Source: Bacillota bacterium (GTDB lineage Bacteria > Bacillota > Clostridia > Christensenellales > CAG-138). Taken from it: DNA of 64,000 bases. The position numbers and the translations under genes were made by a program. This document shows, one piece after another, positions 16,189-16,757 of this stretch (the first letter of the stretch is position 1; every line of letters starts with the position of its first letter). The notes beneath the pieces were generated by a model. That model was given only the letters and a program-made list of their open reading frames with translations. It searched no databases and had not been told where the DNA came from. The stretch covers positions 23,766 through 87,765 of the forward strand of contig JAEWCL010000001.1 in the NCBI GenBank assembly GCA_023390655.1, in the 5' to 3' direction.

Positions 16189-16495
16189 ACAAAAAAACCG
16201 TTCGCACTCTGCGAACGGCATAAAAGGCACAACAAACATGGAAGATACGCCAAAGGCGATCGTTCCGATATCCATTGCTCCGGAGGTCCGCAGAGCCGAA
16301 TATGCCGCAAACGCGGCAAGGATACAGGCAAGTATTCTGGCTTATCGCCTGCGCCTGAAAATGGGGCGCGTGGTTTTAAGCGCCTTCCCAAGGGAGTTCC
16401 CTCAGTGACATATGCTTAAAACCTGCGGCGAATCACAGCAACGGCCTTGCGCGGGAGTTTCACCCGGCTTCCATGACCTGTTCCCGATATTCATT
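16189..16495 (-). promoter_or_regulatory. cobalamin riboswitch (full-length type) with intrinsic terminator
   Basis: Minus-strand read: ATCGGGAACAGGTCATGGAAGCCGGGTGAAACTCCCGCGCAAGGCC ... GTCACTGAGGGAACTCCCTTGGGAAGGCG ... B12 box AAGCCAGAATACTTGCC. Then CCGTTCGCA-gag-TGCGAACGG followed by T7 (16189-16219). GGAGGA RBS and the ATG at 16122 follow. Confidence 0.8.
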
Positions 16496-16505
16496 TTTCA
16501 TGCAA

Positions 16506-16535
16506 AGCATATCACCGCGGCCTTAATAGTGTCAA
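16506..16535 (-). promoter_or_regulatory. candidate promoter for the riboswitch-controlled transport operon
   Basis: Minus strand: TTGACA, 18-nt spacer, TATGCT, immediately upstream of the aptamer. Confidence 0.4.
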
Positions 16536-16558
16536 GGTATATATAGGGCATGCTTGTC

Positions 16559-16588
16559 TTGACAGAGTTCCTGAAACGGCGGTAAGAT
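16559..16588 (+). promoter_or_regulatory. candidate promoter for the cbi/cob operon
   Basis: TTGACA, 18-nt spacer, TAAGAT. It sits back to back (about 25 bp) with the divergent promoter. Confidence 0.45.
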
Positions 16589-16595
16589 AAAGTAA

Positions 16596-16757
16596 CAATT
16601 GAGTGGAGAAGCAGGGTGAAATTCCCTCGCAAGTACGTTACCGTTACAGCCGGATCGCCATGTTTCATATTCCTTTGCGGACACCGAAGGATATGGTTTA
16701 AGATGGGTTCCGTCTTTTCTTAAACTAGCCTTCGGCGTAAAGCCGGAGGCTTTTTTG
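16596..16757 (+). promoter_or_regulatory. probable short (extension-less) cobalamin riboswitch with terminator that sequesters the RBS
   Basis: GGAGAAGCAGGGTGAAATTCCCTCGCAAGTACGTTACCGT, then a B12-box-like AGCCGGATCGCC. No CACTG...GGGAAGG module. Terminator GCCTTCGGC-gtaaa-GCCGGAGGC followed by T6 (16728-16756). The GGAGG inside the 3' stem arm is the RBS for the ATG at 16758. Confidence 0.5.

What the first reader, a model, noticed from the sequence alone, without database searches (positions are those of the whole stretch)
16189..16757. Back-to-back divergent B12 leaders of two different architectures
The 635-bp intergenic region is almost entirely regulatory RNA. The minus-strand leader (uptake operon) has the full-length layout, including the CACTG...GGGAAGG peripheral module. 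The plus-strand leader (biosynthesis operon) keeps GGAGAAGCAGGGTGAAATTCCC...CGTTACCGT and a B12-box-like AGCCGGATCGCC. It has no such module, and its terminator stem contains the cbiD RBS.

Their promoters (TTGACA-18-TATGCT and TTGACA-18-TAAGAT) are about 25 bp apart. Cobalamin riboswitch classes that differ in the peripheral extension are known to differ in selectivity (AdoCbl versus MeCbl/aquo-Cbl). Import and de novo synthesis may therefore be tuned by different corrinoid forms or thresholds.
Basis: partly seen in the sequence, partly recalled or inferred. Interest (0 to 1): 0.6.

Follow-up and report, generated by a model that had tools for sequence, protein, structure and literature searches.

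The report
Divergent class-I/class-II B12 riboswitch pair
One 635-bp gap between a corrinoid-uptake operon and a vitamin-B12 synthesis operon holds two real B12-sensing RNA switches of different build, transcribed back to back; the pairing recurs in many gut and digester Clostridia, so it is a natural system for asking whether the two builds sense different forms of B12.

Summary
Rfam places a full-length class-I cobalamin riboswitch on the minus strand (16496..16310, 57.4 bits). It places a short AdoCbl-II/class-II aptamer on the plus strand (16590..16668, 37.3 bits against a cut-off of 36.5).

The marginal plus-strand hit is real. A covariance model built here finds the same element, at over 100 bits, directly upstream of cbi genes in 41 loci of Christensenellales, Oscillospirales and relatives. 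Helices P3, P4, P5 and P13 show covariation. In 25 of the 41 loci a class-I riboswitch sits divergently beside it, mostly ahead of the same lipoprotein-CbiK uptake genes.

The short element has no P6 extension and no detectable P1. It is followed by a near-invariant P13 hairpin with loop UGCGGACACCG. The class-I partner carries the same loop motif and the same L5, so the two share one kissing-loop module and differ only in peripheral elements.

The inferred mechanism is that ligand-locked P13 blocks an antiterminator, so a terminator forms that also buries the ribosome-binding site.

Different ligand selectivity remains an untested hypothesis. Published work shows that class alone does not predict it.

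The parts
16506..16535 (-). Promoter of the uptake operon: TTGACA-18-TATGCT with a TG extension. Predicted TSS is about 16499.
   Evidence: Back-to-back TGTCAA...TTGACA boxes 13-36 bp apart recur in related loci.
16310..16496 (-). Class-I cobalamin riboswitch aptamer (RF00174) with P6 extension. L5 = GGCCG in CAAG-GCCG-UUG.
   Evidence: 57.4 bits, full length. An RF00174 hit on the opposite strand at GA in 24 other variant-bearing loci.
16277..16297 (-). Candidate P13 hairpin of the class-I leader: GGCUC-UGCGGACCUCCG-GAGC.
   Evidence: The loop motif UGCGGAC..CCG is conserved and the stem varies in a pairing-preserving way (GCUC/GAGC, GCCC/GGGU, GUUC/GAAC), seen by eye in 20 of 23 class-I partners.
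16190..16219 (-). Intrinsic terminator of the class-I leader: GCCGUUCGCAGAGUGCGAACGGU plus U7.
   Evidence: Similar CGUUCGC...GCGAACGG hairpins appear in close relatives.
16133..16137 (-). SD GGAGG of the lipoprotein-CbiK gene (ATG at 16122). It lies outside the terminator.
   Evidence: sequence reading.
16559..16588 (+). Promoter of the cbi/cob operon: TTGACA-18-TAAGAT. Predicted TSS is about 16594-16596.
   Evidence: A TTGACA/-10 pair sits at a similar distance, roughly 13-16 nt from the -10 to P3 (read off a few rows), in most of the 38 aligned relatives.
16595..16602 (+). 5' tail ACAAUUGA, the J1/3-equivalent. No P1 partner was found.
   Evidence: The best 4-bp register pairs in only 70% of cells, and duplex energies run from +1.6 to -5.8 kcal/mol.
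16603..16661 (+). Compact cobalamin aptamer core. P3 is 16603-06/16658-61 plus G16608-C16656. P4/L4 T-loop is GGGUGAAAUUCCC. P5 is AA/UU with L5 GUACG (16633-37). The short P6 is CCG-UUACAGC-CGG. J6/3 and the B12 box read AGCCGGAUCGCC.
   Evidence: RF01689, 37.3 bits. Model R1 scores 137.5 bits on the window, a self-match because the window is in the training alignment, and 102-134 bits in 40 other loci, 24 of which are also training sequences.
16666..16695 (+). P13 hairpin CAUA-U-UCCUU [UGCGGACACCG] AAGGA-UAUG. Loop L13 spans 16676-16686.
   Evidence: The loop is nearly invariant in 38 sequences and the lower stem covaries. The class-I partner carries the same loop motif.
16696..16725 (+). 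Spacer hairpin GUUUAAGA...UCUUAAAC. Its sequence varies between relatives but it stays a hairpin.
16727..16757 (+). Intrinsic terminator AGCCUUCGGC-GUAAA-GCCGGAGGCU plus U6. The 3' arm holds the cbiD SD GGAGG (16745-16749) and the ATG is at 16758.
   Evidence: The same layout, with the terminator ending 1-5 nt before the start codon and GGAGG or GGGGG in its 3' arm, is seen in most relatives.
16684..16690 (+). CCGAAGG (3' end of L13 plus the P13 3' arm). It is complementary to CCUUCGG at 16729-16735 in the terminator 5' arm, giving a candidate antiterminator.
   Evidence: Duplex energy is -12.7 kcal/mol in the window. The mean over 34 loci is -9.0 against -4.6 for shuffled arms.

Best explanation
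Two sigma-70-type promoters fire in opposite directions, with their -35 boxes 23 bp apart. Each transcript begins almost immediately with a cobalamin (corrinoid) riboswitch that acts as an OFF switch.

The minus-strand leader is a standard class-I aptamer with a P6 extension. It is followed by a P13 hairpin and, about 90 nt further on, an intrinsic terminator. It gates a surface-relay and ABC uptake operon (lipoprotein CbiK, two small surface proteins, BtuF/C/D-like genes).

The plus-strand leader is a compact class-II-type aptamer:
- It has the P3-P6 core only, about 60 nt.
- It has a short P6 hairpin and no P6 extension.
- It has an 8-10 nt 5' tail in place of P1/J1-3.
- It gates the 15-gene cbiD...cbiC operon.

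Inferred mechanism for the plus-strand leader. Bound corrinoid stabilises a kissing loop between L5 (GUACG) and L13 (CGGAC within UGCGGACACCG), which locks hairpin P13. With P13 locked, its 3' strand CCGAAGG cannot pair with CCUUCGG. The terminator therefore forms, stops transcription 1 nt before the start codon and buries the SD of any read-through RNA. Without ligand, the terminator's 5' arm invades P13, starting from the single-stranded CCG of L13. This forms an antiterminator and frees GGAGG.

What is shown:
- The elements and their coordinates.
- Family scores.
- Conservation and covariation.
- The shared L5/L13 motif.
- The complementarity between the P13 3' strand and the terminator 5' arm.

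What is inferred:
- Ligand binding.
- The exact register of the kissing loop.
- The strand-invasion step.
- The TSS positions.

Whether the two aptamers differ in ligand form or threshold is open.
For: - Rfam hits above curated cut-offs on both strands.
- Promoters and terminators exceed shuffled expectation.
- The genome holds only three cobalamin-clan hits. The third precedes genes I read by eye as a DUF4430-like protein and an ECF S-component-like protein, not confirmed by any domain search.
- Model R1 finds the short element upstream of cbiD, cbiL or cbiA-like genes in 41 unique loci, at 102-137 bits; 25 of these are the model's own training sequences and 16 are independent. One locus (L033) has a 101-aa unknown ORF first.
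- On 38 sequences, 93% of cells are paired, against 36-48% when the partners are slid. No shuffle out of 500 reached the observed covariation score. P3 pair 28:86 has 5 pair types, pair 33:81 has 4, and there are compensatory changes in P4, P5 and P13.
- The P13 loop is nearly invariant. The class-I partners carry UGCGGAC(N)(N)CCG in a hairpin whose stem varies in a pairing-preserving way, and the same L5 context CAAG-NNCG-UUG.
- The proposed kissing loop has three invariant pairs plus U-A/U-G in 30 of 38 sequences, with an irregular central position. This matches the published rule that cobalamin kissing loops always contain non-canonical or unpaired nucleotides (PMC5028336).
- P13 3' arm against terminator 5' arm: duplex mean -9.0 versus -4.6 kcal/mol for shuffled arms, mean z -2.3, n=34.
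- The full plus-strand leader folds with z = -3.0 into P13, the spacer hairpin and the terminator.
Against:
- RF01689 is passed by only 0.8 bit. About 24 of the 41 relatives fall below it.
- The aptamer core is so conserved that P4, P6 and most of the kissing loop are invariant, which gives no covariation evidence for or against them.
- L13 is invariant where L5 varies, so the kissing-loop register is not proven. Eight of 38 sequences break the U-A position.
- P13 is stable on its own (9 bp), so the ligand-free antiterminated state needs kinetic strand invasion, which is only inferred.
- A minority of relatives (L042, L070, L013, L014) have terminators whose 5' arm is only weakly complementary to P13.
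- TSS positions rest on promoter consensus alone.
Confidence: 0.82

Rival explanations
1. Both leaders sense the same corrinoid pool (adenosyl-cobamide) with essentially the same selectivity. The architectural difference would be historical or kinetic. A 60-nt core beginning at the TSS folds fast and gives a tight double lock (termination plus SD burial) on an expensive 15-gene operon. The class-I leader with its long platform gives a softer response for uptake.
For: - The two share the same lineage-specific L5 and L13 motifs and near-identical P4-P5 sequence.
- Related genomes put a class-I riboswitch on the cbiD strand, about 800 nt upstream of cbiD, instead (L044, L047, L065, L116). Other class-II elements sit ahead of what look by eye like transport or surface genes (L005, L112-L115), so class does not track function strictly.
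- The genome encodes a CobA/BtuR adenosyltransferase, so AdoCbl is the expected end product.
- Some class-II members are AdoCbl-selective (env50, eut; PMC6158498, PMC7367189).
Against: The class-I/short-variant pairing is kept in 25 of 41 loci, down to roughly 50% CbiK and 60-65% CbiD identity. This suggests the difference itself is under selection, though shared descent could also explain it.
Confidence: 0.45
2. The class-I leader is AdoCbl-specific, while the short leader accepts small upper ligands (MeCbl/OHCbl) or is indifferent to the upper ligand. Uptake and synthesis would then be shut off by different corrinoid forms or at different thresholds.
For: - The short element lacks the P6 extension. 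In class-I riboswitches that extension builds the adenosyl pocket, and the archetypal extension-less env8 RNA rejects AdoCbl (PMC7367189).
- The shared kissing loop, which contacts the alpha face, leaves the beta-face periphery as the only place where the two differ (PMC5028336).
- There is a precedent for function-matched selectivity within one organism: S. ovata cobT against its other riboswitches (PMC9600662).
- The genome has a likely MeCbl user (an 810-aa B12-binding ORF) and a likely AdoCbl user (a 161-aa mutase-S-like ORF).
Against: - Selectivity in class II is set by J1/3-J6/3 details and spans the whole range (PMC6158498).
- This element has no canonical J1/3 loop, and I saw no obvious tail-J6/3 covariation on reading the alignment. 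Nothing can be predicted from sequence.
- No binding data exist.
Confidence: 0.3
3. The plus-strand element is a degenerate remnant, or a chance near-threshold Rfam hit. In that case the cbi operon would be controlled only by a constitutive terminator/attenuator or by a protein.
For: The Rfam score is only 0.8 bit above the cut-off, and the modelled P1 is mismatched.
Against: - The element scores 102-134 bits in 40 other loci from several families, 16 of them outside the model's training set, with compensatory changes.
- Core junction nucleotides and L13 are invariant.
- Its position relative to the promoter and the terminator is fixed.
Confidence: 0.03

Closest known systems
Class-I (Cbl-I) cobalamin riboswitches, Rfam RF00174 (e.g. 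T. tengcongensis 4GMA, E. coli btuB, B. subtilis btuF/yvrC)
   Same: The minus-strand leader matches the full model. It has P2, a P6 extension with the CACUG...GGGAAGG module, a B12 box, a P13 hairpin and an intrinsic terminator. It controls a corrinoid transport operon, as is typical for this class.
   Different: Only lineage details differ: L5 is GGCCG rather than the C-rich consensus, L13 is UGCGGACCUCCG, and there is a long platform of about 190 nt. It is otherwise an ordinary member.
Class-IIa cobalamin riboswitch env8 / AdoCbl-variant, Rfam RF01689 (4FRN/4FRG)
   Same: Both have the P3-P6 four-way core, an L4 T-loop, a short P6 hairpin with no extension, a short B12 box, and a downstream P13 hairpin placed a few nucleotides after the aptamer for an L5-L13 kissing loop with an irregular helix.
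   Different: - No conserved P1 and no J1/3 internal loop. The transcript appears to start 8-10 nt before P3.
- L13 does not carry the RBS. Instead P13 is coupled to a terminator that overlaps the RBS.
- The hosts are anaerobic Clostridia, not marine bacteria.
- The element is tied here to cbi operons.
- More than half of the subfamily scores below the RF01689 cut-off.
Class-IIb eut riboswitch of Enterococcus/Listeria (EutX/Rli55)
   Same: It has no extension, is reported to lack an identifiable J1/3 element, and is AdoCbl-responsive (PMC6158498, PMC7367189). This shows that a short aptamer without J1/3 can still sense AdoCbl.
   Different: That riboswitch sits inside a trans-acting sRNA that controls a two-component regulator. 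The element here is a cis-acting 5' leader with its own terminator. No sequence comparison was made here.
Function-matched corrinoid selectivity among the riboswitches of one organism (Sporomusa ovata cobT against the others; Kennedy et al. 2022, PMC9600662)
   Same: The same idea: riboswitches in one cell differ in which corrinoids repress them, according to the gene they control.
   Different: That work concerns lower-ligand (tail) selectivity among class-I-type riboswitches at separate loci. Here two different classes share one divergent control region, and the hypothesis concerns the upper ligand or the threshold.

Membership tests
Cobalamin riboswitch class I (RF00174) | Covariance-model score at or above the curated gathering score over the full model | tested here: met
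   57.4 bits against 31.5, model positions 1-189, window 16496..16310 minus strand.
Cobalamin riboswitch class I (RF00174) | Large P6 extension (P7-P11) with a conserved internal module, plus the P2 stem-loop | tested here: met
   The Rfam alignment shows CCACUGAGGGAACUCCCUUGGGAAGGC aligned to the consensus module. The [[[[ ]]]] outer helices are paired except for a few mismatches.
Cobalamin riboswitch class I (RF00174) | P13 hairpin whose loop can kiss L5 | tested here: inconclusive
   The hairpin GGCUC-UGCGGACCUCCG-GAGC (16297..16277) is conserved, and by eye its stem varies in a pairing-preserving way in 20 of 23 class-I partners. L5 GGCCG can pair with CGG(A)CC. No compensatory change across the two loops was seen.
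Cobalamin riboswitch class I (RF00174) | Binds AdoCbl and represses expression | not testable with these tools
   Needs binding and termination assays.
Cobalamin riboswitch class II (RF01689, AdoCbl-II / Cbl-IIa/b) | Covariance-model score at or above the gathering score | tested here: met
   37.3 bits against 36.5, which is marginal. About 17 of 41 members of the same subfamily pass.
Cobalamin riboswitch class II (RF01689, AdoCbl-II / Cbl-IIa/b) | P3-P6 four-way junction core with an L4 T-loop and a short P6 hairpin without extension | tested here: met
   Structure counts on 38 sequences give 93% paired cells. P3, P4 and P5 show compensatory changes, and P6 is an invariant 3-bp hairpin with a 7-nt loop.
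Cobalamin riboswitch class II (RF01689, AdoCbl-II / Cbl-IIa/b) | P1 helix closing a J1/3 internal loop (the T-loop that docks on J6/3) | tested here: not met
   - No register between the 5' tail and the linker pairs in more than 70% of cells over 4 bp. Per-sequence duplexes range from +1.6 to -5.8 kcal/mol.
- The -10 box lies about 13-16 nt before P3 in the rows checked.
- Rfam's P1 5' strand abuts the -10 box.
- This rests on predicted promoters, not mapped TSSs.
Cobalamin riboswitch class II (RF01689, AdoCbl-II / Cbl-IIa/b) | L5-L13 kissing loop in which L13 contains the RBS (env8-type translational switch) | tested here: not met
   P13/L13 is present, at 16666-16695. L13 (UGCGGACACCG) holds no SD. 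The SD lies 55 nt further on, in the terminator 3' arm.
Cobalamin riboswitch class II (RF01689, AdoCbl-II / Cbl-IIa/b) | Ligand selectivity (IIa: MeCbl/OHCbl; IIb: AdoCbl) | not testable with these tools
   The literature says sequence class does not predict it (PMC6158498, PMC7367189).
Intrinsic-terminator expression platform with RBS sequestration | GC-rich hairpin followed by a U-tract just upstream of the start codon, an SD inside the 3' arm, and a competing antiterminator pairing | tested here: met
   - Terminator at 16727-16751 plus U6.
- GGAGG at 16745-16749 and ATG at 16758.
- CCGAAGG pairs with CCUUCGG at -12.7 kcal/mol. The family mean is -9.0 against -4.6 for shuffled arms.
- Function is inferred, not assayed.

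The most novel reading that the evidence does not exclude
The conserved pair may act as a two-channel corrinoid sensor. The class-I leader would read adenosyl-cobamide to close uptake. The P1-less short aptamer, which shares the same kissing loop but lacks the adenosyl-pocket periphery, would read a different pool (any upper-ligand form, Me/OH-cobamide, or a different concentration threshold) to close de novo synthesis. If so, cells could rank 'import' against 'make' from one 95-bp promoter region. The short element would also define a distinct P1-less subclass of cobalamin riboswitch that current Rfam thresholds mostly miss.
Probability: 0.25. Interest if true: 0.7.

Novelty: new variant of a known kind. 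Interest (0 to 1): 0.45.

Why it matters
Cobalamin riboswitch classes have mostly been compared between unrelated RNAs from different organisms. Here one control region, conserved across several families of anaerobic Clostridia, puts a class-I aptamer and a minimal class-II-type aptamer side by side. They share the same kissing-loop module and lie in the same cell, one on uptake and one on synthesis. This is close to a natural swap experiment for asking what the peripheral elements do, whether that is upper-ligand selectivity, threshold or folding speed.

There is also a practical point. The short element upstream of cbiD scores below the Rfam RF01689 cut-off in more than half of its relatives. 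B12 regulons in gut, rumen and digester MAGs are therefore likely under-annotated, and predictions of who makes B12 and who scavenges it would miss this control point.

If both aptamers turn out to behave alike, the finding reduces to a well-documented but ordinary pair of riboswitches.

Tried and rejected
1. P1 helix for the short aptamer. I searched every register between the 5' tail and the linker in 38 sequences and folded each pair. No conserved helix emerged. Rfam's P1 looks like an A/U-rich artefact that abuts the -10 box.

2. Proof of the L5-L13 kissing loop by covariation. L13 is nearly invariant. The variable L5 centre faces a G and shows C-G in only 10 of 38 sequences. The U-A position is kept in 30 of 38. 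The result is compatible but not demonstrated. I rejected an alternative pairing of CGCAA (J4/5-P5) with UUGCG (L13), because G to A changes in 4 sequences are not compensated.

3. Tail (J1/3-like) against J6/3 covariation. Inspection of A3 showed no pattern. By contrast, J3/4 position 33 pairs with J6/3 position 81 using four pair types.

4. Breadth. A class-level search of 401 evenly drawn genomes with R1 gave only 10 genomes with hits. Most were weaker, different class-II or class-I relatives. The subfamily is therefore restricted, and that sample was too sparse to map it. CbiD-anchored loci were far more informative, but they bias the gene association towards cbi operons.

6. Primary papers on selectivity (Johnson 2012, PMC3518761; Polaski 2017, PMC5512062) are not held. 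Their conclusions are cited only through PMC6158498, PMC7367189 and PMC5028336.

7. Antisense overlap of the two leaders is rejected. The predicted TSSs (about 16499 minus, about 16595 plus) point away from each other and the transcripts do not overlap.
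Full report
**1.

An Rfam scan of the whole window at curated thresholds returns three hits. Two of them lie in the reported interval (repeated at permissive thresholds):
- RF00174 Cobalamin on the minus strand, 16496..16310: 57.4 bits, cut-off 31.5, full model.
- RF01689 AdoCbl-II on the plus strand, 16590..16668: 37.3 bits, cut-off 36.5, full model.

A consensus scan finds exactly two promoter-like sites in 16050-16850, against 0.6 expected. 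They are the ones described:
- Minus strand: TTGACA-18-TATGCT, 16535..16506, with a TG extension.
- Plus strand: TTGACA-18-TAAGAT, 16559-16588.
- The -35 boxes are 23 bp apart.

The same scan finds a terminator in each leader: 16727-16751 plus T6 on the plus strand, and 16219..16197 plus T7 on the minus strand.

Reading the sequence, GGAGG at 16745-16749 lies in the 3' arm of the plus-strand terminator, 8 nt before the cbiD ATG at 16758.

Pfam confirms the flanking genes. On the minus side are a lipobox-bearing CbiK, two small proteins without Pfam hits, Peripla_BP_2, FecCD and an ABC ATPase. On the plus side are CbiD, two corrin methylases and CbiG. The ORF list continues through what I read, from the translations and not from domain scans, as cbiJ, cbiET, cbiA, cobT, cobU, cobS, cobC, cbiB, cobD, cbiP and cbiC, ending at 30658.

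**2. The marginal plus-strand hit is a real, conserved RNA.**

The genome (3.7 Mb, 27 contigs) has only two RF00174 hits and one RF01689 hit.

Among 60 relatives, RF01689 gives hits in 25 genomes, and only 8 reach the cut-off. In the same-genus hits an RF00174 element lies next to it on the opposite strand.

A CbiD-anchored search of species-representative genomes returned 80 loci, mostly MAGs labelled Christensenellales, Oscillospiraceae, Ruminococcus and the like.

Inspection showed that many of these carry the same short core. It is followed by a strikingly conserved hairpin, UCCUU-UGCGGACACCG-AAGGA.

I aligned 25 such sequences (A1) and built covariance model R1, covering the core plus this hairpin. 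I then searched all the loci.
- 41 unique loci (the window, 36 of the 80 CbiD loci, and L006, L009, L013, L014) score 102-137 bits. Twenty-five of them were in the alignment the model was built from, so they match by construction; the other 16 are independent detections. The next-best hits score 55 bits or less.
- In all but three of the 41 loci the element lies 60-120 nt upstream of cbiD.
- The three exceptions precede a cbiA-like gene (L009), a corrin methylase read by eye as cbiL-like (L077) and a 101-aa unknown ORF (L033).

On a fresh alignment of 38 distinct sequences (A3), the proposed structure pairs in 93% of cells. Slid controls give 36-48%, and none of 500 shuffles reaches the observed covariation score. 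Covariation by helix:
- The pair at the base of P3 has five pair types (AU 16, CG 6, GC 5, GU 4, UA 3).
- A further pair between positions 33 and 81 has four pair types.
- P4, P5 and the lower P13 stem each show compensatory changes.

P6, most of P4 and the junctions are invariant. That is uninformative for structure, but it shows strong constraint.

**3. Anatomy of the short leader.**

- P3 is 16603-16606 paired with 16658-16661, plus G16608-C16656 across a purine-purine mismatch.
- P4/L4 is the T-loop GGGUGAAAUUCCC.
- P5 is AA/UU, closing L5 GUACG (16633-16637).
- P6 is CCG-UUACAGC-CGG with no extension.
- J6/3 and the B12 box read AGCCGGAUCGCC.

I found no P1. In most relatives the TTGACA/-10 pair sits at a similar distance, with roughly 13-16 nt between the -10 box and P3 in the rows I read. 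The transcript should therefore start about 8-10 nt before P3, as ACAAUUGA in the window. Three relatives with more distant promoters carry an unrelated 5' hairpin instead.

A systematic search for tail-linker pairing found nothing better than 70% pairing over 4 bp, and per-sequence duplexes of +1.6 to -5.8 kcal/mol. Rfam's 'P1' 5' strand (16590-16596) abuts the -10 box.

After a 4-5 nt linker comes P13 (16666-16695). Three same-genus relatives have a 48-nt self-contained hairpin inserted in that linker. This is compatible with the published sensitivity of the switch to the effective J1/13 length (PMC5028336).

**4. The two leaders share one kissing-loop module.**

Downstream of the class-I aptamer, the window and 19 of 22 related class-I partners carry a hairpin whose loop is UGCGGAC(N)(N)CCG. 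Its stem varies in a way that keeps pairing (GCUC/GAGC, GCCC/GGGU, GUUC/GAAC), as judged by eye. Their L5 context is CAAG-GCCG-UUG.

The short leaders have L13 UGCGGACACCG and L5 CAAG-URCG-UUR. This L5 differs from the C-rich Rfam consensus, so it is a lineage-specific feature shared by both classes.

The pairing this suggests, L5 G-U-N-C-G with L13 C-G-(G)-A-C, has three invariant pairs. The U-A/U-G pair is kept in 30 of 38 sequences, and the central position is irregular.

Polaski et al. report that cobalamin kissing loops always contain non-canonical or unpaired nucleotides, and that this module contacts the alpha face of the ligand (PMC5028336). The two aptamers here therefore differ only in peripheral elements on the other side: P1/P2 and the P6 extension.

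**5. Expression platforms.**

In the plus-strand leader, CCGAAGG (16684-16690; the last three loop nucleotides plus the P13 3' arm) is complementary to CCUUCGG (16729-16735) in the terminator 5' arm. It also resembles the terminator 3' arm CCGGAGG.

Across 34 loci with a recognisable terminator, this duplex averages -9.0 kcal/mol, against -4.6 for shuffled arms.

The full leader folds as P13, a spacer hairpin and the terminator, with z = -3.0.

I therefore infer the following. Ligand-stabilised L5-L13 docking hides the single-stranded CCG toehold and locks P13, so the terminator forms and also sequesters the SD. Without ligand, the emerging terminator 5' arm invades P13 and forms an antiterminator.

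The class-I leader has a much longer platform, and its SD (16137..16133) lies outside the terminator. The synthesis operon therefore has a double lock and the uptake operon a single one.

**6. The pairing is conserved.**

Rfam scans of 36 variant-bearing CbiD loci, plus the loci, give an RF00174 hit on the opposite strand, 60-330 nt upstream, in 25 of the 41 loci.

In most of these loci tblastn finds the lipoprotein-CbiK gene, often with the first small surface protein, downstream of that class-I element.

Back-to-back TGTCAA...TTGACA boxes, 13-36 bp apart, recur in these loci.

Class does not track function strictly, however:
- Some relatives carry a class-I riboswitch on the cbiD strand, about 800 nt upstream of cbiD (L044, L047, L065; L116).
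- Some Ruminococcus loci place CbiK, the NEAT-like gene and cbiD in one direction without the short element (L083, L085, L087, L089).
- Other class-II elements in Clostridia precede genes I read by eye as CbiM-like or secreted and DUF4430-like.

Only about 17 of the 41 members reach the RF01689 cut-off, so this subfamily is easily missed.

**7. Does it sense something different?**

This cannot be decided here. The published picture is as follows:
- Class-I and IIb RNAs bind AdoCbl, and env8-type IIa RNAs bind MeCbl/OHCbl.
- Class-II members span the whole range of selectivity, with J1/3 as a key determinant.
- A hybrid B. subtilis RNA is promiscuous in vitro (PMC7367189, PMC6158498).
- Within one organism, riboswitches can differ in corrinoid selectivity according to the gene they control (PMC9600662).

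The genome encodes a CobA/BtuR-type adenosyltransferase and no PduO-type one. It has three B12-binding-domain ORFs: one of 810 aa that is MetH-like in size, one of 161 aa that is mutase-S-like, and one weak hit. Both Ado- and Me-cobamide are therefore plausible intracellular species.

I put about 0.45 on 'same ligand, different kinetics or history' and about 0.3 on 'different upper-ligand selectivity or threshold'.

**8. Verdict.**

Its functional hypothesis is legitimate but untested.

What is new relative to the described families is modest but concrete:
- A P1-less, terminator-coupled subfamily of class-II-type cobalamin riboswitches upstream of cbi operons in anaerobic Clostridia.
- Its conserved divergent pairing with a class-I riboswitch that shares its kissing loop.

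Noticed in passing
window 51731-51782 (minus): Na+ riboswitch (RF03071, DUF1646 motif), 54.6 bits against a cut-off of 40.5. It is unrelated to the B12 locus.
   Followed up: no
L001 (G000:C26:22867-26066), RF00174 at 1501-1700 minus: The genome's only other cobalamin riboswitch (81.9 bits) precedes a small secreted or membrane protein with a DUF4430-like C-terminus, then a multi-pass membrane protein that looks like an ECF S component (CbrT-like). Both class-I elements of this genome therefore appear to gate uptake, and the one short element gates synthesis. The protein identities were judged by eye only.
   Followed up: partly
L010:1428-1589(-), L011:1492-1659, L012:1492-1652: Three same-genus relatives carry a 48-nt self-folding hairpin inserted exactly in the 4-5 nt linker between the aptamer (CCAUG) and P13 (CAUAU). 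The window lacks it. This is a natural test of how linker length affects the kissing loop.
   Followed up: partly
L083, L085, L087, L089 (Ruminococcus/Ruminiclostridium-labelled loci): In these loci the CbiK homologue and the first NEAT-like gene lie on the same strand directly upstream of cbiD, and R1 finds no short riboswitch there. This is an alternative, co-directional organisation of the same genes.
   Followed up: no
window 10863-11990 (minus): The importer ATPase has about 115 extra C-terminal residues beyond the ABC domain, with no Pfam hit. Another first-stage note also flagged this.
   Followed up: no
window 16758-30658 and G000:C13:22230-22754: The cbi/cob operon has no adenosyltransferase, but a CobA/BtuR-type gene (180.9 bits) lies on another contig. 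No PduO-type gene is found in the 91%-complete assembly.
   Followed up: partly
L039:5441-5520 (minus): Clostridiales-2 sRNA (RF02937, 62.1 bits) lies inside or next to the cbi operon of a relative.
   Followed up: no
window 16156-16181 (minus strand): A second strong hairpin, GUCCAUGCGCGG-UUCC-CGCGUGGAC without a U-tract, lies between the class-I terminator and the CbiK SD. It is conserved in close relatives and its role is unknown.
   Followed up: no
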